A stretch of DNA of 64,000 nucleotides from Eledone cirrhosa. Lineage: Eukaryota. Where the stretch lies: contig OZ024742.1 of assembly GCA_964016885.1 (NCBI GenBank), positions 193,130,001 through 193,194,000 of the forward strand, read 5' to 3'. Every line of letters begins with the position of its first letter. Position 1 is the first letter of the stretch. Positions 5,936 through 52,794 of the stretch are shown piece by piece. A program made the translations under genes and the position numbers. The notes beneath the pieces are model-generated. The model was not told the origin of the DNA. It did not search any database and was given only the letters and a program-made list of their open reading frames with translations.

Positions 5936-6203
5936 TATTATTATTATTACAGTTGCATTTATCTTGCTTTATGTTCATACGAGTTATCACCAAGTCACAA
6001 CCAATGACCTCAAGAGACAACAAGGTCCGCCATGTTCAAGAAAGAACATATATACTCACACATGCATCTTTAGTGTTTAGACTTGTGATGTACTTATATT
6101 GACAGAATATTCCTTAGTATATGGGCAGTTCCCATTAGTACTATCTTTTGTATTTCTCCTATAGGCGAGTTTCCTGGGATTTGCGATAAGTAATCATAAG
6201 ACC
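5936..6203 (-). mobile_element. 3'-terminal fragment of an RLE element with 3' UTR and (TAA)n end
   Basis: Minus strand of about 6095-6200 translates YLSQIPGNSPIGEIQKIVLMGTAHILRNILSI*, homologous to LQKACLLGTARTLRYVLNI*; TTA runs at 5936-5949 and from 6204. Confidence 0.8.
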
Positions 6204-8258
6204 TTATTATAATTATTATTATTATTATTATTATTGTTATTCCTTGAATCTCAGTCATTGATGTTGGTTAACTGGAAAGTCCGTTGGATTGAATATCAAG
6301 CCACTACCTGCAGCCTCAGATATTCAGGACGTATCGGAGGGTTCTTGCCGTTCCAAGCAAGCATGCCTTTTGAAGCGTTCCAAAAAGCGTGAAGGGGCCG
6401 ATTTTCTTTAACCATCCCTGGAAACCTTTGGAGATAGTCCCCAGTGCGCCTATGACAATCGGGATCACTTTGACTTCATGGCAGTTCCAAATCCTTTTCA
6501 CCTCCCACTTTAGGTCCTGGTATCGGTTAATTTTCTCCCTCTCCTTCTCTTGCACTCTCGTGTCGAACGGGCAGGCCACATCCACAATCAGGCACGATCT
6601 TTTTTCTTTGTCCACAACCACCAGGTCAGGTCTATTGTGTTCCAGTTTTTTGTCCGTCTGTATCCTAAAATCCCACAGCACCTTCACCTGACTGTTCTCC
6701 ATCACCGCCTCTGGCCTATGCTCATACCATTTCTCAGAATGTGGTAGATTGTTTACTTTGCACAGGTGCCAGTGGATCACCCTGCCCATCACATCGTGTC
6801 TCCAGCCCTTATAGTGGGTCTGGGCTAGGTGTTTACACTCGGACACAATGTGAGCCACAGTCTCCTCTCTCTCTCCACAGATCCTGCACAGTGGGCTAGC
6901 CTCCTCCTTGTAGATATGGTGCTTCAACCACTTCGTTTTGAGGGCCTGCTCCTGCGCAGCCATTAGCATTCCTTCTGTAGCCTTTTTGAGGTCTCCTCTT
7001 CTCAACCAGTTCCATGTCTGTGGATCTCTAAATTCAGTTTTCTCAAAGAAGGTACTATGAAGGGATTTTCCCTTAAGGCTGCTCTTCCTCCTTGATGTTA
7101 TTTCCTCCTTGGATATCCCCTGGCCTACTGTCCCCTGCTTCAGTACAGCTCTGAGCATTGGCTCCTTACTATAGGTCACGTATTTGTATAGGTTGTTTTT
7201 CTCCATCTGAACACAGTCCTCTATGCTGATAAGACCTCTTCCACCCTCAGATCTCCTTAGGTAGAGTCTATCGACATCACTCCTCTTGTGGAACATGTTG
7301 TAGATAGTCAATAGCTTCCTAGTCTTCCTATCCATTTCTTTTTGTTCAGCAACATTCCATCTCAGAATTCCCGCACTGTACCTAATAATAGACACAGCTC
7401 GGGAATTTACTGCGCTTATGGCATTTCTGCTGTTCAGATGTGACTTCAATACGCTCCTTACTCTCCGAATGTATTCAGTTCTTAACAATTCCTTCTTTTT
7501 TTGTTCTTTATGCCATCAGCCTCCAGAACGCCCAAATACTTGTATCCTTCCTCAGAGTCAATTTCCTTTATCATCTCACCTGTTGGTATCTGGATCCCGT
7601 TACTTCTGCTCAACCTACCCCTCCTCATCACAATGACTCCACATTTACCAATACCAAACTGCATACATATATCACTGCTGAAAATACGGACAGTGTCAAC
7701 AAGCACATCCAACTCCTTCTCACTTTTCCCGAAGAGCTTAAGATGGTCCATGAAGAGGAGGTGATTGATGGTAAGCTCTCCCCTTCCCAACTTGTATCCT
7801 GCTCTCACTTTTCGCAGCATAATGGTCAAGGGCATCAGGGCAAGGACAAACAACAGAGGGGACAGGCTATCTCCCTGGAAGATACCTCTCTTGATCTTCA
7901 CGCTTCCCAAGGATACTCCAGTTGATGTCAACTCTGTCTCCCAGGACCCCATACTCCTGCCCAGCAACTGTCTGATGTTATCTGCCACCCTGAAGATCTC
8001 CAGGCTTTTGGTGATCCAGGAATGAGGCACCATGTCAAATGCCTTTCTGTAGTCTATCCATCCCATGGCAAGATCAGTGTGTCTCCTCCTGCAATTCCCC
8101 ATTACCATCTTATCAATAAGCAACTGGTCCTTTGTACCACGTGACTTCTTTCGGCATCCTTTCTGTTCGTCCGGTAACAAGTTGTTTGTGTGGAGGTGAT
8201 GGTAGATTTCCTCAGACACAATGCTCGTCAACAGTTTCCACATTACGGGCAGACATGT
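6204..8258 (-). mobile_element. RLE element B1, 5'-truncated near-identical copy of B2
   Basis: 6242-8258 matches 8297-10314 almost base for base. 1-bp deletion near 7495 splits the ORF; catalytic MDDL reads MDHL. (TTA)n on both sides. Confidence 0.95.
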
Positions 8259-8370
8259 TTATTATTATTATTATTATTATTATTGTTATTGTTATTCCTT
8301 GAATCTCAGTCATTGATGTTGGTTAACTGGAAAGTCCGTTGGATTGAATATCAAGCCACTACCTGCAGCC

Positions 8371-11300: not shown

Positions 11301-11763
11301 TATTATTTATCTCAGTATTCAGATCATTGTCTGCTTCGGGTGGTTCCTCCGCTCTCAGGACCTCCTCACCTTCATTTCCCGCCGGCTCGCTTGTCTGGCA
11401 TACTACACCCGCCATCTCCAAGCCATTCTCTCTGCTCAGTTCCTCCAGTTCCAGCTCGCTTATCCACCCATTAGTTCTTATTACCCGAGCCTGCTCGGCC
11501 AATTTTTGTTCATCTAATTTAAATAAACCAATCTCGTTCCAGATGTTATGCATCCGTCTCCTGTAGCCCCTCTCCTTGGGGTTACTTTTCAGGTAGCATT
11601 GCATAACAGTTCTATTCAATTCTTTCGTCCAGTTGGTTCTGGCCCCTTTCCTTCTTCTTCTTCCTCCAACATCAGCAGTATTTCGTTGACAGTCAGGTTC
11701 CTGCTGCTGAGCCAGGGGGCACCTGTTGGGTGAGAGTCTGTCACATGACGTTCTAGTCTCCAT
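8371..11763 (-). CDS. Intact 1130-aa RT + CCHC + restriction-like endonuclease protein
   Basis: [31 protein letters not shown]; CRIC...H...C; RHD, RPDLVV, DVACPFD, EK..RY (PD-D/ExK). N-terminal WTKELN...GYRRRMHNIW motif and no N-terminal C2H2 fingers, as in R4-clade proteins. Confidence 0.95.
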   Translation of the reverse strand: METRTSCDRLSPNRCPLAQQQEPDCQRNTADVGGRRRRKGARTNWTKELNRTVMQCYLKSNPKERGYRRRMHNIWNEIGLFKLDEQKLAEQARVIRTNGWISELELEELSRENGLEMAGVVCQTSEPAGNEGEEVLRAEEPPEADNDLNTEINNTWNRDTATEEMNADGLGQDSVDILNLVVDELNNDSGRPMNLRFVDRKKLKETTAKVNKVIPYLEARSLHQCNNILKATANTVRKLLGIKARGNNRQERAEPWWKKRLSGQIGEMRNDIGKLESLLNGTLKNIGTKNRLEIKYKTRSKKLNIIIEELKQCIVAKSAKIRRYENRVSQYKQNRMFDNNQKMLFGQLEGKERGTDLIPGAEQAKTFWRGIWEQDVRHNAQAGWIETVQREIGEQAQQQTDLSITVETLKGQAKKLTNWKSPGPDGVQGYWIRHLTSLHPKLTAMFNDCLVSGEVPEWLTKGTTVLIMKDRIKGNDVTNYRPITCLPVMWKLLTSIVSEEIYHHLHTNNLLPDEQKGCRKKSRGTKDQLLIDKMVMGNCRRRHTDLAMGWIDYRKAFDMVPHSWITKSLEIFRVADNIRQLLGRSMGSWETELTSTGVSLGSVKIKRGIFQGDSLSPLLFVLALMPLTIMLRKVSAGYKLGRGELTINHLLFMDDLKLFGKSEKELDVLVDTVRIFSSDICMQFGIGKCGVIVMRRGRLSRSNGIQIPTGEMIKEIDSEEGYKYLGVLEADGIKNKKMKELLRTEYIRRVRSVLKSHLNSRNAISAVNSRAVSIIRYSAGILRWNVAEQKEMDRKTRKLLTIYNMFHKRSDVDRLYLRRSEGGRGLISIEDCVQMEKNNLYKYVTYSKEPMLRAVLKEGTVGQGIPKEEITSRRKSSLKEKSLHGTFFEKTEFRDPQTWNWLRRGDLKKATEGMLMAAQEQALKTKWLKHHIYKEEASPLCRICGEREETVAHIVSECKHLAQTHYKGWRHDVMGRVIHWHLCKVNNLPHSEKWYEHRPEAVMENSQVKVLWDFRIQTDKKLEHNRPDLVVVDKEKRSCLIVDVACPFDTRVQEKEREKINRYQDLKWEVKRIWNCHEVKVIPSVIGALGTISKGFQGWLKKIGPFTLFGTLQKACLLGTARTLRYVLNI

Positions 11764-12332
11764 TTCACCGTTATTCGAACTGTTTATGTTCGATATTTAA
11801 ACACTCTTATCGAGGATTGGCGAATGTATGTTTACATAGCCATCTGTGGATCCGCCATCCCACTTGGCCCTTGTGTGGCATTATCACCACGCTGTATACG
11901 GACACACATAAACAAACAAACACACGGGCAGAAAGGGCCCCAAAAATGAATAAGCATAAGTTTCATTGTAATGTAGTATTCGAATGTCTGACTTAGTTTT
12001 TGTTTTTTAAGTTTTACTTTTTCCCCCCTCTTCTCTGTCCGTGCGCCTGCTTCTCTCTTCATTCTTATTTTCTTTACGTTTTTGGGGTTTCTTTTTTTGT
12101 TTTTGTTTTTCTCTGTTTTTCTCGTTTTTTACTGTTGTTGCTGTGCTGCTTTTGTTGTTTGTTTTTTCTTTTTTCTTTTGAGTCTATCTATATATTTTGA
12201 TGCCTTCCTCTTTGTTAGTAGTAGGAATTCTATAATGTGGAAGTGGTAGCCAGCAGAGACTAGCGGCGTTGGCGATACTGAGACAGTGGTGGCGGTGATG
12301 TCGATACCGAGGCAGTGGTGGCGGTGATGCGA

Positions 12333-17517: not shown

Positions 17518-20500
17518 GGCGAGCTACGTAGTAAATCGTATCATCGTGAGCTCCGCAAAGGTTTGTTGATTTCGTTTGTTTAAAATTGCCATTCATGGAA
17601 AACATTTTTGTTAACTGTATATAAGTGCACATACATTGTTTTTCGAAAAGGACACTCAAAAAGATTGGGGCCTTGAGCACAAAATTTAAACTTTTGTAAT
17701 TATAGAAAAAAAACTTTCTTTGAATAAAACTTGGATGACTCACAGCCACACGAAGCTGACAGCCTTCCTCACAAACTAACACCTCACACCGATTCTACTA
17801 TTATAAATATTACTACGTTTGCCAACACTAAAAAAAATATAAGCAGTAGCAATATTTTAAATTTGTCTCAGGCAGACATTCATTTCCCGCCATTACCAAA
17901 GATTGCAGGTGTTAAAGCCGCCCCCCTCCCCACCACAACGACAACAGAAACAAAATTAAAAAAATTAACTCGTGATATCGAAATGAATTCAACCAAAATG
18001 AACTCTTCCACACCGAACACCACTGACGCCACCACCACCATAACTGAAACTAAAATTAATAACAAAAATAACGATAACAACAACAGCAACAATTAAATTA
18101 AGAAAACCACCCTGAGTTTTGCCAGAGTAGTAAAACAATGCAAAGCATTTCAGGTAACTCAGGCGGAATTAGAAGAAGCCAAAAAAATGGTAAAGAAAGA
18201 TGGGTACAGGGTCAGCCCCCCCCCCCACACACACATAATAAAATGGAGCATCGGCACCTATGCACCGTGTCTTATCGAACCATTAATATAAAATCGCGCC
18301 GAGTGGAACGGGCATCCGAGTCCCAAATCCAAAATTCTTTGGGACATGTGTGGGCAAAAAAAAACCCCACATCAGACGTGGGCAGAAATATGGAACCGTG
18401 GAGGTGTTCTTTGAAACACCACAGGAGGCTAGAGAACACTCCATGGCCACATTAATAAGTGACGACTTCACACTCGTCCCAAGCTATTGTGGCCAGAGAC
18501 TCGTAAAGATGAGGGTGACCCACGTTCCACCGGCCATCGAAATTCCCTGGCTAATAGCTGCCGTCCTCGCCGGCATCGAAGCCAACACCAAGATAATCGA
18601 AATAACGAAAGAAAAGCAAGAGAACTGGTCCGGATCTGGGATGGAGCACCTGATCCAAGCGGACCAAAAAAGCATTGAGGTGATCCCAGAGGAAATAGAC
18701 CTCACTGACGGCAGCCACCTCACGGTAATTGTCGAGGGAAGAAGGCCTAGGTGTGTCGTTTGTGGTGAAGGGACCCACCTAAGGGCTTTCTGCCCTCAGG
18801 ATAAAAGGTTGAGGCCACCTCTCCTACCCACCAATGTGACTCAACCATCAACACCACCAGCAGCAGAGATGGCAGCAACAACTGTAGCAGCAACAACAGA
18901 AGCAACTGTAACAGCAACAACCCCAGCAACAGTAGCAAAACCAACACCATCACCACCCAAAGCGCCAGAACTAGCACCAGCGCCTACATTATCCACCACG
19001 CCACAACCAAAACCAACGCCTGTGGAGGATTTTCCACTCCCCGGCCTATCACCACTGGAGACAGATTGTGACAACGAAGAGTGGGAAACGGTATCAGGAA
19101 AAAAGAAAAAAAGAAACCCAAAAAGAATAAATTCTATTACCTTCCCCTCCAAAAACAAAATACAGAGGGAAACAAATAAACTATCAAACAAAAAAGTTAG
19201 GACAGATATGCCACCATCCACACCAGCATCACCAACCCCATCACCAGAAACACCAACACCATCACCATCATTAACCCCCAACACCACCATCACCAACACC
19301 ACAAAAGTCACCAAAAAGCGAAACAGAAACAAACCCACCACAAACGCAAAAAAAAACAAAACAACCAAAACGATACACACTACACAGCATTAAATTTGAA
19401 CATCAACCAATTATTACACTACATCCAACACATCACCATCATCACAGAAAAAGACTACACAACAACCCCAACATTCACACCACCTCCAAACATACAAAGC
19501 ACTCGCATCACACAGAAAACGTACACGACACTAAAACAAAAATTCCCCAAAGACATCAGAGACTTCCGACAAACACTCTCCAGGAGGATTTATAAGGATA
19601 TCCTTCCTGAGGAGGCCACAAGCAGTGAAAATAATGGACAAACCATCCTTCCTCTACGGGAAGTAAGGTAAGTGGTCTTTCCCATCTTTTCCACTCCATT
19701 TCAACATGACCTCACTCAGAATAGGCAGCATAAATGGGCGTGGCTTGGGGTCGTCATGGAAGCAGGGCCACCTGCTCAACGACCTCAGGTCGCTAAACAT
19801 AGATGTAGTGGCCATCAGCGAGACCATATCTCCAAAGCACGGGCCTTCGAACCGATCTTCGGCGGCTACGATGTGTACGCATCTCCCAGCCGTCCGGGAT
19901 CGGGGGAGGTGTTGCTGGGCTTTTTCGGAGAGGTTTGGATCTCGCCATACGGGCCATCTTCCTGGACCCAGAAGGTAAGTTAGTGCTGTTAGACGTGACT
20001 AGCGGAAACGGGCAAGATTTCAGGCTAGTGGCCGTCTATGCTCCGAGAGGAGCAGGGCGGACTGATTTCTTCCGGCGTCTGGAGACCTTTCTTGGAACGT
20101 CCCGCTCTTTAGTGTTAGTGGGCGACTGGAACGGGATCTTAGATGCACGCTGGGAATATGTGGGATTAGGGGATAGGGGTGGAGGGTGCAAGAGCCTCAC
20201 CAACCTGCTCAGGCGTTTTGAACTGTCTGACAGGTACCGATTGGATTTCACGAATGTGGAACTGTGGACTTGGACAAATCGCATAATCTCATCCAGATCA
20301 TATCTAGATAGAGTATTTTGTAGGGAAATAGATAGGTCTAGCATAGGCTGTCCACAATTCAAGATAGTCAGCTACACGGACCACAAATTCGTGACCTGTG
20401 TGCTTCACTTAGATAGGCTTCATAGACGAGCATCCAGCTACTGGAAGCTAAACGCCTCCTTACCAGCTTGCAAGGCCTACAGAGACCGGATTAGCGAACT

Positions 20501-23294
20501 AGTTAAGTGGGCGTTGACGGGGGCCATCGCAACAACAAGTGGTGGTTTGCTCTGAAAAGAGCAATTAGAATAGAGCCATTAGGTTTCGTAAGGCTTTAGC
20601 AATGGAGAAAAATAGAGCAGAGGGAGAAGTAGTGAGAAAATTAGACGAGGCGCTTAGCAAATGCGAAATTGGCCCTTGACCAATTCTTCAATGCAAAATA
20701 CAAAGGCTGCGTTGTCAGAGCTAGGGTGCGTGCTCTCAGAGACGAGGGGACGAAAGCCGTTCAATTGGTCCGAGTGGCGGAGGCTTTAGTGGACCACGAC
20801 GGGCGCATGCTACTCGATCCCGGGAAAATGTGTGAAGCTTTTCAGCGACACTTCGCACAGCTGTTCGGAGACAGCGACGGGCCGGATCGAGGGATGAACT
20901 TTAGTGTCTACCTCGACAGACTGCCGCTGCTCTCGGCCACTGAGACGGAGTGTTGCGAAAAGCCGATAACAGCCACTGAAGTACGGGAGGCAATGACTGG
21001 CTGCACGAGGGGTAAATCGCCTGGTTTAGATGGTCTGCCCTATGAACTTTACATACAGATGCCAGACTTGTTCGGAGGCCTCTTGGCGGACGTCTACTGC
21101 AACTGGCAACAGAACGGGAGAATTCCCAGCTCTGTGAGCCGAGGAGCTGTGGCGCTGCTGAGTAAGGATCCGAACAAAGGGGATAACATAGATAATTTCA
21201 GACCCATAACTCTGCTAAACACATAGTTCAAGATTTTGGCCAAGGTGCTAGCAAAGGGGTTGGCATTTGTCGTTGGTTGTCTGGTGGGAGAGGCGTCGAC
21301 GTGCGCCATTCCCGACAGATCTATCCACGACAACCTCCACCTTATGCGATACATCGTAGAGAGGGTAGCTAGGGAACCTGGGTGGGTCCTTGATAAATTT
21401 AGATCAGTCGAAAGCTTTCGATAGGGTCGACCATCGTTACCTAGCGGCAGTCCTGAGGGCGGCTGGCTTTGGGCCCGTCTTCAGAGGCTGGATCACAGCC
21501 ATGAACAGCGACATGTGCTCTGTGGTGAGAGTGAACGGTCACCTTTCGGAACCGTTCAACATCATGCGCTCGGACCGTCAAGGATGTCCTCTCTCGTCCC
21601 TCTTGTACGAATTGACTCTCGAGCCATTACTGCACAAATTGGAGACATTGAGGGGGGTCCGGTGCGAACTAGGATGCGTAAGATCCGTGTCAGCATATGC
21701 GGACGATGTCACCGTAGTGGTGTCGAACGCAAAACACATCGAGGTGATCGGCACTACACTAAGAGAATACGAAGCGGTGACAGGAGCAATGATAAACCAG
21801 GAAAAGTCAGTGGGCCTGCAGTTCAGCACCTGGAGAGGCAGGTCCATGCTGTCTAACAGCGTCGTCGGCCACCGGACGGACCGGTTAAATTGCTAGGGTC
21901 TGGTTCGGTCCAGACCTCCAGACGGATAAAAGCTGGGACGAGGTGACGAGCAGGGTGGCTTCTTTCACCCAGAAATGGGCGGAGAGGAACCTTTCCTTGA
22001 AAGGTTTGAGCGGAGGTGGCCAACGCGTACATCGCGTCCATCTTCTACTACCGCCTGACCGTCGTACCTTGTCCTGACTGCGCTGGAGCGTTTGCTCTTT
22101 CGCTTTTTGTGGAAGGGACGCGCTCCGATGGTCAGGCGGTCCATCTGCTGTCAACACCCGCTACGTGGAGGGCTTTGCATGCCGTGGCTGATGATGCACA
22201 GACACGCCCTCATGTTACGACATCTCCCCCTCTTCCTCGACGGTGATCAGGTGTGGTCGCCGTTTGCTAGACACGTATTTTCCCAGCTCGTCTCCTTGAT
22301 GGAGCTGCAGTCCTGCGTCAAGCGAAGACCGAGAGGGAGCTCTTGGAGACTAGAATGTCTTTAGGCGTTCACAGCCCTCGACCAATCGGGCAATGTGATC
22401 GGTGGAAACTCCACCTTGGCGTTCTATAGAGGATTAGTGGAGGGAAAGAGCGACGACGTACTTGGAGAAATTCTAGGCGTCGACGAAAATCAACTAGCCA
22501 ATCTCTTCGGAAGGAATTTCGGGCCGGGGCCTATGGACAACTTCCAGAAATCCCTGGCCTGGCAGTGCTACCGAGGATCTTTGCCAGTTCGGGATAAACT
22601 CTACAGGCATGGAGGTGCCGTCAGCCGGGCATGTCCGAGATGCGCGCAGAGCGACGAAACCGTCCTGTACGCACTCGTCCAGTGTCCGAGCATTGCTGAC
22701 TTGTGGGTTTATGTCGAACACCTGCTGTCACGTGTAGGACGGATCCAGCTATCAGCTGAGTCACTCGTGAGGATTACCCCGCCATCTTCCTTTAGCCGGG
22801 AAGGGCAGGCAGTTCTTATCTGTCTGGTGGCCATGGCGAAAGAGATAGTATGGTGGACACGTTTGAAAGGGCTGAAGACGCGCACTTACCTCTTCGGCGA
22901 TGCCCTGATTACCTTTTTCAAATTTCATTTGAAAAGGAAAATCAGGGTAGAGAGGGAAGTGCTCTCTTCCCAGCATTTTGTAGAAAGATGGGTGAGAGAA
23001 GCAAGTATGGCCCGTGTGAATGGGCCTACTCTGAGTTTCTGTCTGTAAATTAAAGGTGGAAAACTGGGAGAGAGCCCTTGCCCTGGTGGTCAGGGTCACT
23101 GTGGCCTTTTAATGGGCTTTCTCCACAAATGTCCCTCGGAAGTGTCCCCCCTATTGGGTAATTTTTTCATTGTTATTTTTTTAATTATATCCTGTTTTTT
23201 TTACACGCAGAAATGCCCATTTGTACCGTCCTGTATTGTCCTGTACTGTCCTTAATGTCTACTTTATGTGAACCCTTGTGGTTAATAAAGAAAA

Positions 23295-23295
<1 letters not shown>
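17518..23295 (+). mobile_element. Tx1/L1-clade element C1, full-length but degenerate
   Basis: ORF1 pieces 17731-19671 with CVVCGEGTHLRAFC. ORF2 pieces 19706-23048 with APE, RT (LDQSKAFD, RQGCPLS, AYADD) and C-terminal CPRC...C. AATAAA at 23284, then (ATT)n 23296-23364. Confidence 0.95.
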
Positions 23296-23364
<69 letters not shown>

Positions 23365-23572
23365 GGCGACCTACGTAGGAAATCGTATTATCGTGAGCTC
23401 CGCAAAGGTTTGTTATTTCCGTTTGTTTAAAAATTGCCATTTATGGAAAATTTTATTGTAAACTGTTTATAAGCACACATACATTGTTTTCCGAAAAGGA
23501 CACCCAAAAAGATTGGGGCCTTGTGCCCAAAATTTTAACTTTTATTATTATCCAAAAATTTCTTTGAAAAAA

Positions 23573-25293
23573 ATGGCTAATTCCCCTCTGCACGAAGCAG
23601 CTGAAAGCCTTCCTCACAAAATAACACCTCACACCGACACCACCATTGTAAATGTTACTACGTTTGCCAACACAAAAAAAAAATATAAGCAGTAGCAATA
23701 TTTTAAATTTGTCTCAGGCAGACATTCATTTCCCGCCATTACCAATGACTGCAGGTGTTAAACCCTCCACCACCACCACCACCGCGACAACCACCACCAC
23801 CACCACCACCGCGACAACAGAAACAAAAGAAGAAAAAAATAAATTAACTCGTGACGTCGAAATGAAATCAAGCAAAATGGACTCTTCCCCACCAAAGACG
23901 ACTGACGTCACCACCACCACAACTGAAAATAAAATTAATATTAACGATAGCAACAACAACAACAATGACATTATAAAACCGACCCTCAGTTTCGCCATCG
24001 TAGCAAAACAATTCGAAGCGTTCACGGTAACTCAAGAAGATTTAGAAAATGCCAAACAAATGGTAAAGAAAGATGGGTACAGGGTCAGCCTCACCCCCCC
24101 CCCCCACCTAATAAAATGGAGCATCGGCGCCTGTGCACCGTGTCGTATAGAACAATAAATGTAAAATCGCGCCGAGTGGAACGGGCATCCGAGTCCCAAA
24201 TCCAAAAAGCTTTGGGACATGTGTGGGCAAGAAAAACCCACATCAGACGTGGGCAAAAGTATGGAACCGTGGATGTGTTCTTTGAAACACCAGAGGAGGC
24301 TAGAGAACACTCCATGGCCCCATTAAAAAGTGACGACCTCACACTCGTCCCAAGCTATTGTGGCCAGAGACTCGTAAAGATCAGGGTGACCCACGTTCCA
24401 CCGGCCATCGAAATTCCCTGGCTAATAGCGGCTGTCCTTGCCGGCATCGAAGCCAACACGAAAATAATAGCAGTAGCAAAAGAAAAGCAGGAAAACTGGT
24501 CCGGATCTGGGATGGAGCTCCTGATCCAAGCGGACCAAAAAAGCATTGAGGAGATCCCAGAGGTAATAGACCTCACTGACGGCAGCCACCTCACGGTAAT
24601 TGTCGAGGGCAGAAGACCTAGGTGTGCCGTTTGTGGTGAAGGAACCCACCTAAGGGCTTTCTGCCCTCAGGCTAAAAGGTTGAGGCCACCTCTCCTACCC
24701 ACCCCAGTGACACAACCATCAACACCACCAGTAGCAGAAATGGCAGCAACAACTGTAGCAGCAACAACAGAAGCAACTATAACAGCAACAACCCCAGCAA
24801 CAGTAGCAAAACCAACACCACTACCACCACCAACAAAACCAACACCACCACCACCCAACGCTTCAGAACTAGCACCAGCGCCTACACCATCCACCACACC
24901 ACAACCAAAACTAACGGCTGTGGAGGATTTTCCACTCCCCGGCCTATCACAACTGGAGACAGATTGTGACGACGAGGAGTGGGAAATGATATCCGGAAAA
25001 AAAAAAGAAACCAAAAAAGAAAAAATTCTCTTCCTTCCCCCTCCAAAAACAAAATACAGAGGGAAACAAATAAACTAAGAAACAAAAAAGTTAGGACAGA
25101 TATGCCACCATCCACACCAGCATCACCAACCCCATCAACCCAAACACCAAACCCATCACCATCATTATCCCCAGCACCACCATCACCTACACCACAAAAG
25201 TCACCAAAAAGCGAAACAGAAACAAACCCACAACAAACGCAAACAAAACAAAACAACCAAAACAACCATCTTTTCCACTCCTTTTCAACATGA
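23573..25293 (+). pseudogene. C2 ORF1, broken at homopolymer runs and lacking its C-terminal segment
   Basis: MANSPLHE start; frames change at poly-A near 23675, poly-C near 24095 and poly-A near 25000; CAVCGEGTHLRAFC knuckle. Confidence 0.75.
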
Positions 25294-28200
25294 CCTCACT
25301 CAGAATAGGCAGCATAAATGCGCGTGGCTTGGGGTCGTCATGGAAGCAGGGCCACCTGCTCAACGACCTCAGGTCACTAAACATAGATGTAGTGGCCATC
25401 AGCGAGACCAGAATCTCCGAAGCACAGGCTTTCGCACCGATCTTCGGCGGCTACGATGTGTACGCATCTCCCAGCCGTCCGGGATCGGGGGGAGGAGTTG
25501 CTGTGCTTTTTCGGAGAGGTTGGATCTTTCCATACGGGCCATCTTCCTGGACCCAGAAGGTAAGTTGGTGGTGCTGGACGTGACCAGCGGAGACGGGCAA
25601 GCTTTCAGGTTAGTGGCCGTTTATGCCCCGACAGGAGCAGGGCGGCCTGATCTCTTCCGGCGTCTGGAGACCTTTCTTGGAACGTCCCGCTCTTTAGTGT
25701 TAGTGGGCGACTGGAACGGGATCTTAGATGCACGCTGGGATTGTGTGGGATTAGTGGATAGGGAAGGAGGGTGCAAGAGTCTCACCAACCTGCTCAGACG
25801 TTTTGAACTGTCTGACAGGTACCGAATGGATTTCCCGAATGTACCAATGTGGACTTGGACAAGTCGCATAGGGTCATCCAGATCATATCTAGATAGAGTA
25901 TTTTGTAGGGAAATAGATAGGTCTAGCATAGGCTGTCCACAATTCAAGATAGTCAGCTACACGGACCACAAATTCGTGATCTGTGTGCTTGACTTAGATA
26001 GGCTTCATAGACGAGGACCCGGCTACTGGAAGCTAAACGCGTCCTTACCAGCGCGCAAGGCCTACAGAGACCGGATTAGCGCACTAGTTAAGCGGGCGTT
26101 GACGGGGGCCATCGTCAACAACAAGTGGTGGTTTGCTCTGAAAAGAGCAATTAGAATAGAGTCCATTAGGTTTAGTAAGACTTTAGCAATAGAGAAAAAT
26201 AGAGCAGAGGGAGAATTAGTTAGAAAATTAGATGAGGCGCTTAGCAAAGGCATCGCGACCGACGTACTTGCGGCGAAATTGGCCCTTGACCAATTCTTCA
26301 ATGCAAAGCACGAAGGCTGCGTTGTCAGAGCTAGGGTGCGTGCTCTCAGACACGAGGGGACGAAAGCCGTTCAATGGGCCCGAGTGGCGGAGGCGCGTCG
26401 TGGCAACAAAGCCACGATCCGGTCTTTGGTGGACCACGACGGGCGCATGCTACTCGATCCCGGGCAAATGTGTGAAGCTTTTCAGCGACACTTCGCTCAA
26501 CTGTTCGGGGGCAGTGGCGGGCCGAATCGAGGGATGGACTTTAGTGTCTACCTCGACGGACTGCCGCGGCTTTCGGCCACTGAGGCGGAGTGTTGCGAAA
26601 AGCCGATAACAACCGCTGAAGTACGGGATGCAATGACTAGTTGCACAAGGGGCAAATCGCCTGGTTTGGATGGTCTGCCCTATGAACTTTACGTACAAAT
26701 GCCAAACTTGTTCGGAGGCCTCTTGGCGGACGTCTACTGCAACTGGCAACAGAACGGGAGAATTCCCAGCTCTGTGAACCGAGGAGCGGTGGCGCTGCTG
26801 AGAAAGGATCCGAACAAGGGGATAACATAGATAATTTTAGGCCCATAACTCTGCTAAACACAGAGTTCAAGATTTTGGCCAAGGTGCTAGCAAAGAGGTT
26901 GGCGCTTGTCGTTGGTGGTCTGGTGGGAGAGGCACAGACATGCGCCATTCCCGACAGATCCATCCACGACAACCTCCACCTCATGCGATACATCGTAGAG
27001 AAGGTAGCTAGGGAACCTGGCACGGGTGGGTCTTTGATCAATTTAGATCAGTCGAAAGCCTTCGATAGGGTCGACCATCGTTACCTAGCGGCAGTCCTGA
27101 GGGCGGCTGGCTTTGGGCCCGTCTTCAGAGGCTGGATCGCTGCCATGCACAGCGACATCTGCTCTGTAGTGAGAGTGAACGGTCACCTTTCGGAACCGTT
27201 CAACATCATGCGCTCGGTCCGCCAAGGATGTCGACTCTCGTCCCTATTGACCGTATTGATTCTCGAGCCATTACTGCAGAAACTGGAGACGTTGAGGGGG
27301 GTCCCGCGCGAACTAGGATGCGGAAGATCCGTGTCAGCATATGCCGACGATGTCACCGTAGTGGTGTCAAACGCCAAACACATCGAGGCGATCGGCACTA
27401 CACTAAGAGAATACGAAGCGGTGACAGGAGCAATGATCAACCAGGAAAAGTCAGTGGGCCTGCAGCTCGGCACCTGGAGAGGCAGGTCCATGCCGTCCAA
27501 CAGCGTCGTCGGGCGCTGGACGGACGGACCGGTTAAATTGCTAGGGGTCTGGTTCGGTCCAGACCTCCAGACGGACAAAAACTGGGACGAGGTGACGAGC
27601 AGGGTGGCTTCTCTCACCCAGAAATGGGCCGAGAGGAAGCTATCCCTGAAAGGTCGAGCGGAGGTGGCGAATGCGTACATCGCATCCGCCATCTACTACC
27701 GCCTGACCGTCGTACCTTGTCCTAAGCCCCGCCTGACTGCGCTGGAGCGTTTGCTCTTTCGCTTCTTGTGGAAGGGACGCGCTCCGATGGTCAGGCGGTC
27801 CATCTGCTGTCAACACCCGCTACGCGGAGGGCTGGGTATGCCGTGGCTGATGATGCGCAGACACGCGCTCAGGCTACGACATCTCCACCTCTTCCTCGAC
27901 GGTGATCAGGTGTGGTCGCCGTTTGCAAGAAACGTTTTTCCCCAGCTCGTCTCCTTGACGGAGCTGCAGTCCTGGGTCAAGCGAAGACCGAGAGGGAGCG
28001 CTTGGAGACTGGAATGTCTTCAGGCGCTCACAGCCCTCGACCAATCGGGCAATGTGATCGGTGGAAACTCCACCTTGGCGTTCTATAGGGGATTAGTGGA
28101 GGGGAAGAGCGACGACGTACTTGGAGAAACTCTAGGCGTCGACGAAAATCAACTAGCCAATCTCTTCGGAAGGACTTTCGAGCCGGGGCCTATGGACAAC

Positions 28201-28707
28201 TTCCAGAAATCCCTGGCCTGGCAGTGCTACCGAGGAGCTTTGCCAGTTCGGGATATACTCTACAGGCATGGAGGTGCCGTCAGCCGGGCATGTCCGAGAT
28301 GCGCGCAGGGCGACGAAACCGTCCTGCACGCACTCGTCCAGTGTCCGAGCATTGCTGACTTGTGGGTTTATGTCGAACACCTACTGTCACGTGTAGGACG
28401 GATCCAGCTATCAGCTGAGTCCATCGTGAGGATTGCCCCGCCGTCTTCCTTTAGCCGGGAAGGGCAGGCAGTTTTTATCTGTCTGGTGGCCATGGCGAAA
28501 GAGATAGTATGGTGGACACGTTTGAAAGGGCTGAAGACGAGCACTTACCTCTTCGGTGATGCCCTGATTAACTTTTTCAAATTTCATTTGAAAAGGAAAA
28601 TCAGGGTAGAGAGGGAAGTGCTCTCTTCCCAGCATTTTGTTGAAAGATGGGTGAGAGAAGCAAGTATGGCCCGAATGAATGGGCCTTCTCTGAGTATGTG
28701 TCTGTAA
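25290..28707 (+). pseudogene. C2 ORF2 (APE-RT-CCHC) with two 1-bp frameshifts
   Basis: MTSLRIGSINARGL start. Relative to C1, single bases are missing near 25519 (aggttgg vs aggtttgg) and near 26817 (caagggg vs caaagggg). YADD intact; CPRC...HALVQC. Confidence 0.9.
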
Positions 28708-32633: not shown

Positions 32634-34757
32634 TTAAACCATATTTAATACTGGTCTATATTTTTGAATAAACATATTTTCCTTATTTATTCGTATTTGT
32701 TCTGTTGTATTGTTAGTGCAAAGGTAAAATGGGAAGACTTGGAATTTGGGTGTCTTATTACTTGCGCATATGTATAGATGTGCGCTTAGTGGTATCTGTC
32801 TCGTGGTTGGATCTCGTAATTGTTGGCGATGAACTGTCATTCTGTTTCTGAGTGTGAGTTTAGTTTGTCCTATATAATCTTCATTGCATCCTTTACATTT
32901 AATGGCATAAAGTAGATTTTTTGATGAGCAAGTGAAGTGATGTTTTACAGTAACATTTTGTCCTGATTTAAATGTATACGTATTGCCTTCAATAAGGTGA
33001 ATGCAGATTGCACAATTAGAGCGACCACATTTTTTGACACTTGGTTGTGGGTTTGTGCTAGGTAATTTGGTATTGGTGAGTAATGTTTTCAGTGAATTCG
33101 GTTGTCTTTTGCTTTTGATTATTTTGTGTGTTTCAAGGGATTTTTCATTCTTGGGTTTTGTTTTAGTAGTAGGATGTTCTTGTGAATAATCTTGTAAGCT
33201 TCCGTATTTCTTGGGTTGTGTGTTGAGATATATGATAGAATATTGGACGTACCTTGAATTTGTTTCTGTTTTCGTAATTCATCAATGCCTATTGCTTTAG
33301 CCCTTTCTATCCCATTATTTATTATTAATAGTGGGTACTCTCTTTCGAGTAGAATTTCCTTTAATTCTTGAAGTCTTTTATTTCGCGTTTCATAATTGGA
33401 GACAATTGTGTAAACTCTTCTGGCTAGTTTAAAAGGAATGTTCGTCTTCGTGTGCTTTGGATGGTTGGAGGTGAATCGCAGGTACTGTTTGGAATTTGTT
33501 GGTTTGTAGTGTATGTCAGTTTCAATATTTGTGTCTTTTTTTAAGATTAAGATGTCCAGAAATGGGAGTTGATCTTGGCTGTATTCCATTGTTAATTGGA
33601 TGTGGTTATTGATGCCGTTTATTAAGTTTTTGAAATCCTTCAGCTGGTCGAGTGTGTGGGACCAAAGAATGAGACAATCATCCAAGTAGCGTTTCCAATT
33701 CTCTGATAAATATTTGTGGAAGTTCAATCCGTATTTTGATTTGGACTGTTCATATATCTGGACTTCTAAGTATGCCATGACTAAGTGGGCATAAGTTGGA
33801 GCGGCTTTTGTACCCATCGCAGTCCCCGATATTTGCTTGTAAGTACTGCCATCGAAATCAAAAAAGTAGTTCTGTGAGATGAATTTTAATCCCTCGGTGA
33901 TGAAGCTTTTTTCTATTCTGTCAGATATCTCATTGGGATATTTCTCTAGCCAGAATCCTATTGCTTCTGGTCCGTATTGGTGTGGAATCGTTGTGTAGAG
34001 ATTCACTACATCAAAAGACACAATAATAGTGTCGTTGTTGACATGTTTGGGGAGGTGGTTTAAGAGGTCCAGATTGTCTCTTACAAGGCTTGGTATGTGT
34101 TTGAGAATTGGTTTTAGTAGTATTTTAGTCTATAAAGTTGCTCAGTCTCTGTGTTTCACATTGTGGGCCCGCTACAATTGGTCTTAATTTAAGGTCTGTG
34201 GGGTATTGTGTGTTCACGCAGGCTGAGGTGGCTTGTTTACAGGCATCGTTAATTATTTTAAACTTGTGGATCTTCGGAAGTCCGTAAAGCTTGCTGGTTT
34301 TGTATTCAAAATGTGTTAAATAATCGCGTTCCTTTGTAGTTAGGTATTCCTGGTATCGATAAATCAGTGTGTTTAATCTGGTCATTGTTTTGATTGCTGG
34401 TAGTTTTTTACTCTTTCATAGTAATTAGTATTTTAGAAGAGAGAGAACATAGAATTTTTATATTTTTCAGCCTCCATAATGACAACAGTACTTCCCTTGT
34501 CCGCTTCCTTAATTATAATGTCCGTATTGTTTTTTAGTTCATGGATAATCTCCCATTCCCTTCGACTAGTGTTGTGTTTGGGTTTAGGTTGCGGTAGTTC
34601 ATGGTATGGGAAGGTAACTATGTGGTCACAAAATTTGTCCAGAACTCTGTTTCTACATTTTGCTGGGTTGTAGCTGCTTTTATTCCGTACAATTGATTCG
34701 TCGTTATTCTCCTTGTTAAAGAATTCTTCTGTGCGACGTAATTTTCTACAGAAGTGT
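32634..34757 (-). mobile_element. Penelope-like element (RT + GIY-YIG), degenerate and 5'-truncated
   Basis: KEADKGSTVV, LYGLPKIHK, LRPIVAGP, SFDVVNLYT, GTAMGT, RYLDD, LPFLD; then CGRSNCAIC...LLYAIKCKGC..YIGQT...RMTVH. Confidence 0.93.
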
Positions 34758-46994: not shown

Positions 46995-47337
46995 CGTTTG
47001 GCCTGTAGTGGGTTCTCTTCTTGCTCACATCTCAGTTACGTCGGATGGTCTATATATCCCTCGCTCATGAAATCCACACAGCTTAAGCTGACCTGATCGC
47101 CATGGTGCTTGTTTTTTTCCTATCTTTGCGTTGCTTCCCTTCCTTGTTGTTTACTGTCTCGCTCGCTTTACGCGATTTACTTGTCCCAATAGCTTTATTT
47201 AGCTATTGCTCACACCAACCGGAGGTATATGATTTTTAAAGCGCTGAAATACCAATGAAGGTTGGAAAATCACTGACGAATGACTATTTTTTTATCATAT
47301 GTAACCCATGTGCAACCACGCAGTATTCTTTCTTCTC

Positions 47338-47345
<8 letters not shown>
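46995..47345 (+). repeat. Diverged single copy of the 511-bp repeat family
   Basis: ttgttgtttact..tctc.ctcgctttacgcg, gaggtatatgattttt, aaatcactga.ga and ccatgtgcaacc.gcagtattctt are shared with 50935-51125. Confidence 0.8.
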
Positions 47346-47855: not shown

Positions 47856-50540
47856 ATAGGAGAAAGTATGACGCCGACGGCAGAGCTCAAGCCGTTTCGA
47901 CGGCTATTTCTGAACTAAAGTAATAGTTTTTTAGACTGGTAAATAAATAGCCGAACTTTTCAAAGGGTACTTCCTTATATGTGAAGATTGTAGTTGTCAA
48001 GAGGATTTGGTCAAAATGTAAAGCAGACACAGAAAAGTCTATTATGGCAGTGGATGCGGGGTGGGGATTGCTGAACATGCCTGTAGAACGACAGGGGAGT
48101 GGGTAAAGCCGCTCAAGCGTAGAAGGTGAAATCTACACAGCCAATTCTAAGGTATGTGTATGAAAGTAGGACAGTGGAGTTTGACGAAAAAAGGTTTCTT
48201 TAGAAAGTGGAGCAGGGACGTTATAGAAATAGTCAATCAAATGCGATTAAGGGACAATGAAAACATATAATAAAAGAGAATATGATAAAAAATGAGAGAA
48301 ATATGTATCAGAATGTATGATTGGAAAGTGAGAAGTGAAATAAAACTAAAGAGTCTAACACAGCTGCTATGAATAGTTAGTATAGCGTAATCGGTTGGTG
48401 CTGCTATTTCGGCCAAAGCTATAGAATGAGTTGCTAGATGAGAATTATTGAAAATTTAGAATTACAATTAATACCACGTCTCTGGGGTCTAACACAGCTG
48501 CTATGAATAGTTAGTATAGCGTATTCGGTGAATGCTAGCTGTAACTTACTGGGTTGGGGGTACTGATGCTAATGCTAAAGACGACCGATGGGCTGCCTCG
48601 GGGTAGGCGAAAGGGGAAAAACACAAAGAAACGAACGAGGAAGAAATTCGGTGGTGGCAATAAGTGATAGGAGACAAAGAGAAGGGGAAAACATATAGGA
48701 AAAGGAAAGAGGTACATCTACCTATATAAGTAGGGGTTTCCTCTATCTTATTCGGCAAGTTGGGTGTTTCAGCCCTAGTCTACCCACCCGCATCGTTAGG
48801 GGGTTTGAGGGCGAGGTAAGTCTTCCGCAATCTGTGTTTGCATGCAGTTACCAGTCGTCTTTTTTGTTTAGGAGTTGATCCTTCGTAAACAGCATTTATA
48901 ATGTTTCCTCCGAGCATAAGTTACACGGACGGCGTCCTCCCGTGCGAGACATGGCTCTGGACAGTAAGCACCAAGTAAGATGGTAAGTTATATTATTATC
49001 TTGGAGGTCCCAGATATGGCCCGAAATTGTGGTGGCATGTCGCCGGACCGTGGTTCGGAACGTATGTCGGTGTTGGTAGAGCCGCATCTTAAAGTCACAA
49101 ACGGTTAATCCTATATAAGCTTTATTGGAAGTGTCCGTCCACACGTTGCACTGGAAGATCACGTTACGTTCTCGGCATCTGTTGTTGAGGGGGCACGTAG
49201 ATTTATCAGGGCAGTTACACCTCCTGGTCGGCTCTTCACTAATTTCTAGGTTGTTTGTTCCATAGGTGTTGAGTTTTTTGTTGTTTGAGGAGACGATGTT
49301 TTGTGCGAAGTTAGGTGTGGTGCTGTAGGATAGCTTGATAATGTTTTTGTTGATTATGTTGTGGTAGCGGTGATGTGGTGGAAAGTTTTTTTAGAGAAGC
49401 CTAAAGAAGATTTTACCGATAGGTGTTGCCACCTCGGCATTGTGGGGAGGATTGAACCATGTTATCTGGCGTGAACGGCGGCGTCTCCTGCTGGTTCGGC
49501 TAAGGGAAGCTGGATAAAATGATATTTCCTCCCAGAAGCCACTCCGCTTGAGGGCCTGGTTGCAATGAGGCGCATGTTCATCGAATATCTGATCATTAGC
49601 GGACAAACGAGATATGCCGAGGGCGATGTTTTTAGCCAGATTATTGCTGATGTTTCTAGGATGGTTAGAGCGGCGGTGGATGTAGTGTAGGTTGTCGTTT
49701 GGTTTCCTGTATGGGTAGTACAGATAATTTTCGAGGTTCAGTGTAACGTCCAGGAAATTTAGTCGCGTTAAGGACGTTTGTAGGGTGATTTTAAATCCCA
49801 GTCCCGGAAGAAGTTGATAAGTTGTTTACGGACCCGGTCTGTATTACTGGGGTTGTACCCTTTTAGGGTAAGGAGCCCATCTTCTCGGTACAATTCTAAA
49901 TTTTCAATAATCGTCATCTAGCAACTCATTCTATAGCTTTGGCCGAAATAGCAGCACCAACTAAATATAGCAACTGTGTTAGACTCTATAGTTTTATTTC
50001 ACTTCTCACTTTCCAGTCTTACATTCTGATACATGTTTCTCTCATTTTTTATTATATTCCTTTTTATTATATTTTTTCATTGTCCCCTAATCGAATTTGA
50101 TTTACTATTTCTATAACGGCTTTCCTCCACTTTCTAAAGAAACCTTTTTTCGCCAACCTCCACTGGCCTACTTTCATACACATTCCTTAGAATTTGCCGT
50201 GTAGATTTCACCTTCTACGCTTGACTGGCTTTATCCACTCCACTTCTACAAGCAAGTTCAACCATCACCACCCTGCTCCCACTTTTCTGTGTCTGCTACA
50301 CATTTTGACCAATCCTCTTGACAACTACAATCTTCCCATATAAGGAAGTACCCTTGAAAAGTTTGGCTATGTATTTACCAGACTAAAAAAACTCTTACTT
50401 TAGTCCAGAAATAGCCGTCGAAACGGCTTGATTTCTGCCGTCGGGGTCATACTCTCTCCTATTACCCACTCTACTAGCCTAAGTATTGACTACTCTGGAG
50501 CGTTATAGTCCATCTGGTTCCTTACCACAACTCCTTTGTT
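47856..50540 (-). mobile_element. 5'-truncated Penelope-like element bracketed by about 600-bp inverted pseudo-LTRs
   Basis: ORF remnants 48800-49890 (LNFLDVTL, HRRSNHP, ITWFNPP, CNCPDKSTCPLNNRC, YIGLT...KMRLYQH, CNLCSEE). 47856-48465 is the inverted counterpart of 49890-50462. Confidence 0.92.
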
Positions 50541-51645
50541 CGTCGGCAAATCACTGATGAGGGACACATTTTATTACATGTTATCCATGTGCAACCTGCA
50601 GTATTCTTTTCCCCATTTTTTCACATATATTTACCTAAACTGTGATTCTGTTTTTTTCTCTCTCTCTCTCTTACTGCTCCCTCTTTCTCTCTGTTTCTCC
50701 CACTTTCTTTCGCCCCCTCTGTCATATCAGTTAACTCTTCCTCACACTTCCAATCACTCACTCACTGTTTCTCCCCTTCTCACTTCACCCCGTTCGCGAC
50801 GAAAACATTTTCTTTCTTTCTCACATTTGGATTCATCTCGAAAGGTCTTTTTTCTAGGCGCTCATATATTCACCTAGCTTATGCTAACATAATAACTATG
50901 TAGCTTGTTCCCTTCCTCTCTACGGTTAGCTCTCTTTGTTGTTTACTTGTCTCACTCGCTTTACGCGTTTTAATTGTCCTAATAACTTAATTTAGTTATT
51001 ATTGCACCGACATGAGGTATATGATTTTTAATGCAATGAAATATCTATGATCGTCGGCAAATCACTGATGAGGGACTCATTTTATTACATGTTATCCATG
51101 TGCAACCTGCAGTATTCTTCTCCCCATTTGTTCACATATATTTACCTAAACTGCGATTCTGTTTTTTTCTCTCTCTCTCTCTTACTGCTCCCTCGTTCTC
51201 TCTGTTTCTCCTACTTTCTTTCGCCCCCTTTGTCATGTCAGTTAACTCTTCCTCACACTTCCACTCACTCACTCACTGTTTCTCCCCTTCTCACTTCACC
51301 CCGTTCGCGACGAAAACATTTTCTTTCTTTCTCACATTTGGATTCATCTCGAAAGGTTTTTTTTCAAAGCGCTCATATATACACCTAGCTTATGCTAACA
51401 TAATAACTATGTAGCCTGTTCCCTTCCTCTCTACGGTTAGCTCTCTTTGTTGTTTACTTGTCTCACTCGCTTTACGCGTTTTAATTGTCCTAATAACTTA
51501 ATTTAGTTATTATTGCACCGACGTGAGGTATATGATTTTTAATGCAATGAAATATCTATGATCGTCGGTAAATCACTGATGAGGGACTCATTTTATTACA
51601 TGTTATCCATGTGCAACCTGCAGTATTCTTCTCCCCATTTTTTCA
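50541..51645 (+). repeat. 511-bp tandem repeat, about 2.2 copies, carrying hammerhead core motifs
   Basis: ctgatga at 50554, 51065 and 51576 (period 511); units nearly identical. Confidence 0.95.
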
Positions 51646-51669
51646 TATATATATATATATATATATATT

Positions 51670-52794
<1,125 letters not shown>

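What the first reader, a model, noticed from the sequence alone, without database searches (positions are those of the whole stretch)
50541..51645. Split hammerhead with scrambled strand order in a 511-bp tandem repeat
Seen at 51007-51071, 51518-51582 and the diverged copy 47215-47279: all hammerhead core elements occur in the order [stem III'-UA-stem I], [GAAA-stem III], [stem I'-CUGAYGA]. Types I-III are circular permutations of the opposite order. Pairings: aggtat/atatct (ggtat/atacc in the diverged copy); tgattt/aaatca (tgatttt/aaaatca); an outer stem that covaries (ccgac/gtcgg, accgacg/cgtcggt, ccaacc/ggttgg). Stem II is one R-Y pair (G-U or A-U). The CUGA strand starts 0-1 nt after the outer stem, probably too close to reach its own loop. 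Inference: it pairs with the hairpin of a neighbouring unit, so only tandem or circular RNA cleaves and releases about 511-nt monomers, as in retrozymes or dimeric PLE hammerheads but with a different architecture.
Basis: partly seen in the sequence, partly recalled or inferred. Interest (0 to 1): 0.85.

Follow-up and report, generated by a model that had tools for sequence, protein, structure and literature searches.

The report
Kink-turn hammerhead in retrotransposon tails
A hammerhead-ribozyme motif with its strands in scrambled order and a predicted kink-turn brace fills thousands of repeat copies in this animal genome and also sits just behind the gene of one group of jumping genes; it likely cuts its own RNA as a single unit, which would let these elements copy themselves through RNA circles.

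Summary
The motif is real. Its order (S-G-C) is the known type-SGC non-circular permutation (Eckert 2023), whose examples came from metatranscriptomes. Here a stem-blind pattern finds 22,257 matches against 104 for the control, in tandem units of 511-706 bp. The loop between stem III and the outer stem is a conserved kink-turn consensus. Stem II continues as a 5-bp helix supplied by an upstream strand. Two more helices close the domain on itself. Four helices covary across families and across 15 of 15 metagenome hits. The kink would bend the outer stem back, so the 1-nt linker argues for monomer folding in cis, not against it. The same fold lies in the 3' UTR of RLE-type (probably Hero-clade) non-LTR retrotransposons, here and in other organisms. 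Of 6 copies that keep their 5' UTR start, 4 run on seamlessly from a ribozyme-bearing tail, as expected of a circular or multimeric template. Cleavage is untested, no RNA data were found, and 5' ends do not clearly pile up at the cut.

The parts
50541..51645 (+). Family A element: 5'-truncated array of about 2.2 units of 511 bp, with a fixed 3' end running into (TA)n
50541..50560 (+). Orphan 3' half of a ribozyme (NC 3' strand, stem I', CUGAUGA) at the truncated 5' end of the array
50976..51076 (+). Ribozyme domain copy 1 (helix X to X'); predicted cut after 51021
   Evidence: X 4/4, Y 8/8, P2 5/5, NC 5/6, III 4/4, I 6/6
51487..51587 (+). Ribozyme domain copy 2 (helix X to X'); predicted cut after 51532
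   Evidence: X 4/4, Y 8/8, P2 5/5, NC 6/6, III 4/4, I 6/6
51487..51512 (+). Helix X 5' strand (51487-90, pairs with 51584-87) and hairpin Y (51491-98 with 51505-12)
   Evidence: recurrent in position across families, but short X helices are not individually significant against shuffles
51513..51517 (+). P2a: upstream strand that pairs with 51543-47 and so supplies the rest of stem II
   Evidence: covariation
51518..51526 (+). Outer (NC) stem 5' strand and kink-turn positions 3n, 2n, 1n (U, G, A)
51527..51538 (+). Block S: stem III', U16.1, H17 (A), stem I
51539..51556 (+). NUAA linker, P2b, position 11.1 (U), GAAA, stem III (block G)
51557..51569 (+). Kink-turn 3-nt bulge (UAU), 1b-3b (G, A, U), NC 3' strand, 1-nt linker
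51570..51587 (+). Block C: stem I', CUGAUGA, 10.1 (G), helix X 3' strand
51588..51645 (+). 3' tail of the element, ending 113 nt after the predicted cut; inferred priming end for reverse transcription
47062..47343 (+). Family B element, single truncated copy between TA runs; ribozyme about 47183-47284, predicted cut after 47229, kink-turn of Kt-7 type (3b.3n = A.G)

Best explanation
The repeat is a non-coding mobile tandem element whose unit carries a type-SGC hammerhead fold, braced by a predicted kink-turn, that likely cleaves in cis as a monomer, once per unit, and would yield unit-length RNAs that are likely circularised and copied by the reverse transcriptase of RLE-type non-LTR retrotransposons, which carry the same fold in their own 3' UTR. 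Shown: the core, four covarying helices, the kink-turn consensus, the fixed spacing, a fixed 3' end in (TA)n with scattered 5' truncations, more-than-unit copies that cross the cut site without a scar, and the fold behind RLE ORFs. Inferred: stem III kinks into the NC arm, which returns to a three-way junction with the distal ends of stems I and II and replaces the usual loop-loop contact. The core would form one arm of a four-way junction with P2, X and Y, with position 10.1 coming from either strand. Read-through transcripts of tandem copies would be cut after UH and ligated. Target-primed reverse transcription would start 88-113 nt downstream of the junction and run round the circle for a fraction of a turn to several turns. 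That the 511-bp units borrow the RLE enzyme is inferred from the shared fold and anatomy only.
For: Stem-blind, kink-blind sample of 30 loci: stem I 157/180, stem III 103/120, NC 146/180 and P2 111/150 cells paired; 0 of 2000 row shuffles reach these values. In that sample 1b is G in 28/30, 2b is A in 28/30 and 1n is A in 26/30; 2n is G in 14 and U in 13, and U is a natural Kt-23 variant (PMC5061560). Alignments: 86% paired with 20/22 pairs changed on both sides; 94% across organisms. The top 11 of 3321 mutual-information column pairs are all predicted pairs. 118 chance hits in viral contigs pair at 32-38%. 15 of 15 metagenome hits form 17-21 of 21 pairs, 2 of them fixed by the pattern. In 12 of 13 aligned outside rows, 11.1 pairs with the upstream strand, mostly as the canonical G-C. 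The core was also found without any pattern, by protein search: GAAA..CUGANGA lies 31-330 nt after the projected RLE ORF end in 25 of 53 own-genome loci. 10 of 15 metagenome loci have an RLE ORF end upstream. H17 is never G in 13 rows where the pattern left it free. 4 of 6 RLE copies with a 5' UTR start are preceded seamlessly by tail plus ribozyme. Family A units differ less within arrays (median 0.012, n=16) than between arrays (0.028, n=66).
Against: No cleavage assay and no RNA data. 5' junctions do not clearly peak at the cut: 69, 24 and 72 at positions 0, +1 and +2, confounded by TA microhomology. The within-array similarity was not seen in families B and C (n=2 and 6, noisy). The 10.1-11.1 pair does not covary significantly in the 30-locus sample (22/30; 683 of 2000 shuffles reach it), and in families A, B and D it is G.U, A-U or U-A rather than G-C. 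In the RLE-linked forms the backbone is broken between A9 and 10.1, which I did not find described for any active natural hammerhead. Short units A-F show no DNA similarity to the RLE unit at E 0.1. TA follows only 8 of 20 RLE ends. The geometry is an axis-only estimate. Family A's kink-turn (3b.3n = U.U) meets neither published rule that favours ion-induced folding. A cut that severs the priming tail from the ORF would be harmful unless it is religated or repressed.
Confidence: 0.58

Rival explanations
1. The fold is conserved as a docking structure for the RLE reverse transcriptase at the 3' end and does not cleave; the hammerhead letters are structural or fossil.
For: It lies in the 3' UTR, where non-LTR enzymes bind (established knowledge). 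No cleavage footprint in 5' ends. Stem II is non-canonical, and 0 of 42 and 0 of 23 rows meet the stem II and core part of the published SGC descriptor. An earlier AI note on another genome reached this view (e1-7941993; unchecked).
Against: The helices supported here share no nucleotide with the core and are exactly the hammerhead stems I, II and III, in register. Core letters stay fixed in families found by protein alone while the stems turn over; N7 is free and H17 avoids G. Tandem copies of the autonomous element then need another explanation. Docking and cleavage are not exclusive.
Confidence: 0.17
2. The ribozyme cleaves in cis, but no circle is the template: uncleaved multimeric transcripts are copied, and cleavage only terminates, processes or down-regulates read-through transcripts.
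For: Arrays crossing the cut site fit a multimer as well as a circle. Within-array units can differ by up to 0.1 in family A. A satellite array of about 90 kb could supply multimers.
Against: The single-ORF RLE element also shows partial-plus-full tandem copies with a fixed 3' end. Retrozymes with type I hammerheads accumulate as circles (PMC7229834 passages).
Confidence: 0.13
3. One reading: the CUGA strand pairs with a neighbouring unit or another molecule, so only tandem or dimeric RNA cleaves.
For: Neighbouring units are nearly identical, so covariation cannot tell own from neighbour. Dimeric cleavage is established for amphibian and PLE hammerheads. A linker of 0-1 nt would be impossible on a straight helix (54-62 A).
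Against: The conserved kink-turn consensus and the invariant spacing would serve no purpose in trans. Helix X closes each unit. The motifs are 3.6 kb apart in the RLE element. Known dimeric forms arise from an unstable stem III with a palindromic loop, which is absent here.
Confidence: 0.12

Closest known systems
Type-SGC hammerheads (HRIMA-1 and SGC variant; Eckert, Friedrich, Weinberg, Weinberg 2023, PMC10085705)
   Same: Block order S-G-C, full hammerhead core, short linker from stem I into stem II, and an extra helix that ties stems I and II together.
   Different: Published forms take a multi-bp stem II from block C and an 'I' helix that encloses block C. Their supplement has no 'kink', and the paper found none in genomes of known organisms apart from one GCS candidate. 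Here stem II comes from an upstream strand, a kink-turn consensus extends stem III, and the host is a retroelement in genomic DNA.
Metazoan non-LTR retrozymes (PMC7229834; bioRxiv 10.64898/2026.07.22.740005)
   Same: Non-coding tandem repeats, one hammerhead per unit, GC under 50%, monomers to long arrays, proposed circular intermediate.
   Different: Those carry type I hammerheads and are linked to Penelope-like elements. These carry an SGC fold shared with RLE non-LTR elements; no link to GIY-YIG loci was seen (2 of 50 loci have a motif, 2.1 kb away or on the opposite strand).
Hammerheads in pseudo-LTRs of Penelope-like elements (PMC4209133)
   Same: Ribozyme near the element end, partial-tandem copies, inverted 5' pieces, and a proposed circle giving more-than-unit cDNA.
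   Different: Type I minimal motifs that work as dimers with a GIY-YIG enzyme, against a full stem III, a predicted monomer and an RLE enzyme here.
R2-group RLE non-LTR retrotransposons, probably the Hero clade
   Same: Single ORF with RT (PF00078), CCHC knuckle and a PD..E..K-type C-terminus; weak match to R2 proteins 9nl3 and 9dou. Relatives occur in fishes, lancelets, lamprey and bivalves, and Hero is the only R2-group clade reported in bivalves (PMC10294476).
   Different: R2 uses an HDV-like ribozyme to process its co-transcript (reference titles; the 5' position is recalled). A 3'-UTR hammerhead was not found in the literature searched.
Kink-turns (Kt-7, box C/D, Kt-23; PMC5061560)
   Same: 3-nt bulge followed by G.A and A.G pairs; variants with 2n = U or A as in Kt-23; role of bending a helix back to make a tertiary contact, as in SAM-I.
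   Different: No natural kink-turn within a hammerhead appeared in the titles and abstract starts of the 30 of 37 papers listed.

Membership tests
Hammerhead ribozyme | Core CUGANGA, GAAA and UH in register with stems I and III | tested here: met
   also in families found by protein search
Hammerhead ribozyme | 10.1-11.1 pair and stem II next to G12/A9 | tested here: inconclusive
   11.1 pairs with the nucleotide after A9 or with the upstream strand in 38/42 and 12/13 rows; the helix continues only through the upstream strand; covariation of this pair is not significant in the 30-locus sample
Hammerhead ribozyme | Site-specific self-cleavage after H17 | not testable with these tools
   needs an in vitro assay; the genomic 5'-end test was inconclusive
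Type-SGC hammerhead (Eckert 2023) | Block order S, G, C | tested here: met
Type-SGC hammerhead (Eckert 2023) | Intact block C supplying a multi-bp stem II, and an 'I' helix enclosing block C | tested here: not met
   0 of 42 and 0 of 23 rows meet the descriptor's CGAAA, CUGAUGA(U)G and two further pairs; so same order, different family
Kink-turn | 3-nt bulge, G1b.A1n and A2b.G2n between a canonical and a non-canonical stem | tested here: met
   kink-blind sample: 1b G 28/30, 2b A 28/30, 1n A 26/30, 2n G or U 27/30; 2n G in 13/13 outside rows
Kink-turn | Adopts the 50-degree kink or binds L7Ae-family protein | not testable with these tools
   needs FRET, gel mobility or a structure
Non-LTR retrozyme | Non-coding tandem unit with one hammerhead per unit, dispersed as monomers to multimers | tested here: met
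   (units 511-706 bp, longest Met-ORF 52-166 aa, 113 aa in family A)
Non-LTR retrozyme | Type I hammerhead | tested here: not met
   the order is SGC
Non-LTR retrozyme | Expressed as linear and circular unit-length RNA | not testable with these tools
   no RNA holder listed
Penelope-like element pLTR | Motif in the terminal repeat of an RT + GIY-YIG element | tested here: not met
   50 GIY-YIG loci examined, none with the motif in a terminal position; a small sample of 10,596 candidates
RLE (R2-group) non-LTR retrotransposon, autonomous carrier | Single ORF with RT, CCHC and restriction-like endonuclease C-terminus | tested here: met
   endonuclease motif read from the sequence and the weak R2 alignment, not from a Pfam model
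Hero clade | RT phylogeny with reference Hero elements | not tested
   no reference sequences available; assignment rests on host range and recall

The most novel reading that the evidence does not exclude
A whole clade of R2-group LINEs in fishes, lancelets, molluscs and other animals, with their non-coding parasites, replicates through circular RNA made by a caged hammerhead in the 3' UTR. That hammerhead is the first natural one with a kink-turn and with stem II built from a fourth strand, and its kink-turn lets a host L7Ae-family protein or the element's own enzyme switch cleavage on or off.
Probability: 0.3. Interest if true: 0.93.

Novelty: new variant of a known kind. Interest (0 to 1): 0.8.

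Why it matters
If it cleaves, it extends hammerhead architecture beyond the three-block scheme (block C is split, and a kink-turn and two helical junctions replace the loop-loop contact). It moves non-circular permutations from metatranscriptome RNAs into animal chromosomes at more than 20,000 copies. It also gives an R2-group LINE a Penelope-like circular route and supplies a second, non-Penelope partner class for retrozymes. The motifs tested escape Rfam and the published SGC descriptor, so ribozyme censuses of animal genomes would be missing the family. The fold is about 100 nt long and can be tested in one transcription assay.

Tried and rejected
Rfam: no hit at gathering score in the window; only sub-threshold matches at 50400-51800. 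MFE folding does not show the pseudoknotted fold. A canonical type I-III reading using the downstream GAAA motifs near 50798 and 50840 was rejected by eye, because no stem III partner with UH fits. A Penelope partner was not found. Expression: no RNA holder listed; two runs of unknown kind laid as contigs only confirm that the repeat is present; neither is evidence on expression. 5'-end pile-up at the cut: 410 against 193 for unequal windows; about 26 of the first 100 listed at -4..0 and about 55 at +7..+10, counted by eye; 69/24/72; all confounded by TA microhomology, so inconclusive. One search was mis-registered by one base and is not used. Viral contigs: 118 chance hits with the loose pattern, 0 with the strict one, and no protein relative. 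Prokaryote genomes: 2 hits, one chance (L458) and one with an RLE ORF end (L459), probably host DNA in the bin. DNA homology of short units to the RLE unit: none. Lunse et al. 2017 is not held; only its title was seen in a reference list.

Full report
1. Observation. The three motifs are at the stated coordinates with the stated pairings. The array spans 50541-51645 with a period of 511 bp. The window lies in a 3.0-Gb genome (G000:C3). A pattern holding only UH, the UAA linker, GAAA and CUGANGA at nearly fixed spacing matches 22,257 times against 104 for the reversed control. Narrower patterns gave 278 against 8, 1347 against 34, 179 against 6 and 814 against 16. Rfam does not recognise the motif.

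2. The order is known. Eckert et al. 2023 (PMC10085705; I read the introduction, four results sections, part 1 of 2 of the discussion, passages, and supplement parts 1 and 8 of 42 plus a term search) define blocks S, G and C. They show that type SGC cleaves as a single transcript at 0.007-0.19 per min. [quoted passage not shown] Their SGC forms take stem II from block C. My re-implementation of the stem II and core part of their descriptor is met by 0 of 42 and 0 of 23 aligned rows here.

3. The real anatomy. Reading 5' to 3' in copy 2: helix X strand, hairpin Y (8 bp), P2a, outer stem, U-G-A, stem III', UA and the cut, stem I, UUAA, P2b, U11.1, GAAA, stem III, a 3-nt bulge, G-A-U, outer stem, 1 nt, stem I', CUGAUGA, G, and the X' strand. 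The loop between stem III and the outer stem fits the kink-turn consensus (PMC5061560, passages and one section). P2 continues stem II from an upstream strand.

Unbiased test: I used the first 30 loci of a pattern with no stems and no kink letters (all 30 kept). Stem I paired in 157/180 cells, stem III in 103/120, the outer stem in 146/180 and P2 in 111/150. None of 2000 row shuffles reached these values, and slid registers were far lower. Kink letters were G 28/30, A 28/30 and A 26/30, with 2n G in 14 and U in 13. The single 10.1-11.1 pair (22/30) was not above shuffles.

Alignment A1 has 42 rows: 3 window copies, 10 family representatives that I picked after seeing pair scores, and 29 of those 30 loci (L207 dropped as a likely chance hit). 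It gives 86% paired and 20 of 22 pairs with double changes; the picked rows bias it upward. Chance hits in 118 viral contigs pair at 32-38%. Shuffles ignore relatedness, but the changes recur between families and between organisms.

4. Cis or trans. GAAA-to-CUGA spacing is 27 nt in 116 of 119 central hits of searches that allowed a range. An axis-only estimate puts the end of the outer stem 9-22 A from the end of stem I with a 50-degree kink and 54-62 A without (rough, with no atomic model). Co-folding of the flanks places X and Y directly before P2a in most of 28 representatives. X is long and beats shuffles in some RLE-linked forms (0-4 of 200) but is short and not significant in the small units. 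I infer a self-contained monomer in which the core is one arm of a four-way junction and the outer stem meets stems I and II in a three-way junction. Domain swapping remains possible.

5. Beyond this genome. One strict scan of metagenome contigs gave 15 hits, all with 17-21 of 21 pairs; 2 pairs were fixed by the pattern, and some hits are near-identical. Alignment A2 (12 of these 15, one hit from a prokaryote bin, and 10 own rows) is 94% paired. Over 55 distinct gap-free rows, the top 11 of 3321 APC-corrected column pairs are all predicted pairs. In the 13 outside rows, 11.1 pairs with the upstream strand in 12 and with the base after A9 in 1; in A1 the numbers are 16 and 33 of 42. Position 10.1 can therefore come from either strand.

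6. The carrier. Ten of the 15 metagenome loci have the C-terminus of a retrotransposon ORF 31-453 nt upstream of the motif. The protein has RT, a CCHC knuckle and a restriction-like C-terminus, weakly matches R2 proteins (E 3e-4), and has relatives named from fishes, lancelets, lamprey and bivalves. Hero is the likely clade (PMC10294476 passages), but I did not test this by tree. Searching G000 with this protein alone, 25 of 53 loci examined carry GAAA..CUGANGA 31-330 nt after the projected ORF end, in about four families. The 53 are the 30 best hits plus 23 that I picked from the list; one place is counted twice. The main family has a 5-bp stem III, a 6-bp stem I, a 12-bp X helix and a kink-turn with 2n = A. 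Its unit is 3,599 bp, and it occurs as a partial plus a full tandem copy. Of 6 copies that keep the 5' UTR start, 4 are preceded without a seam by the 3' tail with an intact ribozyme (5' ends at -25, -42, -521 and -809 from the cut); the other 2 begin 5 and 11 nt into the UTR. Short units A-F share no detectable DNA with this element, so their dependence on it is inferred. No link to Penelope elements appeared in 50 GIY-YIG loci.

7. Element behaviour. Family A arrays share one 3' end about 113 nt after the cut and have scattered 5' ends and some 5' inversions. TA runs follow the last unit in 22/26, 24/24 and 27/35 cases for families A, B and C, and in 8/20 for the RLE family. This fits target-primed reverse transcription (established knowledge). 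Junctions across the cut carry no scar, so the template was a circle or an uncut multimer. Units within A arrays differ less (0.012) than between arrays (0.028), but B and C did not show this. 5' ends do not clearly peak at the cut. No RNA run was listed.

8. Mechanism and odds. Cis cleavage with a circular intermediate 0.58; non-cleaving docking fold 0.17; cis cleavage without circles 0.13; trans or dimer 0.12. The circle model parallels proposals for PLEs and retrozymes (PMC4209133 and PMC7229834, passages; bioRxiv 10.64898/2026.07.22.740005, parts 1-2 of 5; PMC6155905, passages).

9. Novelty. In the library searched, SGC with hammerhead, permutation and genome returns only Eckert 2023. 'Permuted hammerhead' returns 0 papers, and Hero with hammerhead and retrotransposon returns 0. 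Listings for hammerhead with k-turn or RLE showed no natural case (titles and abstract starts only). Most subscription journals are not in the library. Verdict: a new variant of a known ribozyme kind, in a new genomic setting; interest 0.8.

Noticed in passing
window 47858-50460: A 2.6-kb element with long inverted arms (48093-48381 and 49956-50244, 90% complementary) lies between the B copy and the A array; it looks like a DNA transposon.
   Followed up: no
window 32637-34129 (-): Decayed Penelope-like element (RT and GIY-YIG), with a CUGAUGA near 34875 on the minus strand in its 5' region that may be its own hammerhead.
   Followed up: partly
window 2467-11796 (-) and 19809-28704 (+): Several broken RT, endonuclease and zf-RVT ORFs of LINE type, and an integrase zinc-binding fragment at 5035-5661.
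   Followed up: no
window 51572-51666 (-) and 51061-51164 (-): Weak U6 snRNA-like match antisense to the family A tail (17.2 and 14 bits against a gathering score of 44); probably chance.
   Followed up: no
G000:C1:81.55-81.64 Mb (L072-L090): Family A forms a satellite array of about 90 kb with a variant base next to CUGAUGA in many units.
   Followed up: partly
L365 near 7821, L493, L469: A separate repeat family with an ordinary type I hammerhead-like motif also occurs in this genome.
   Followed up: no
L459 (Brevinema MAG contig): A prokaryote bin holds an RLE ORF end followed by the ribozyme motif; probably animal host DNA in the bin.
   Followed up: partly
L095, L098, L099, L107, L110, L144: A diverged own-genome subfamily with UH-to-GAAA spacing one base shorter; two of these loci have RLE ORF remnants upstream.
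   Followed up: partly
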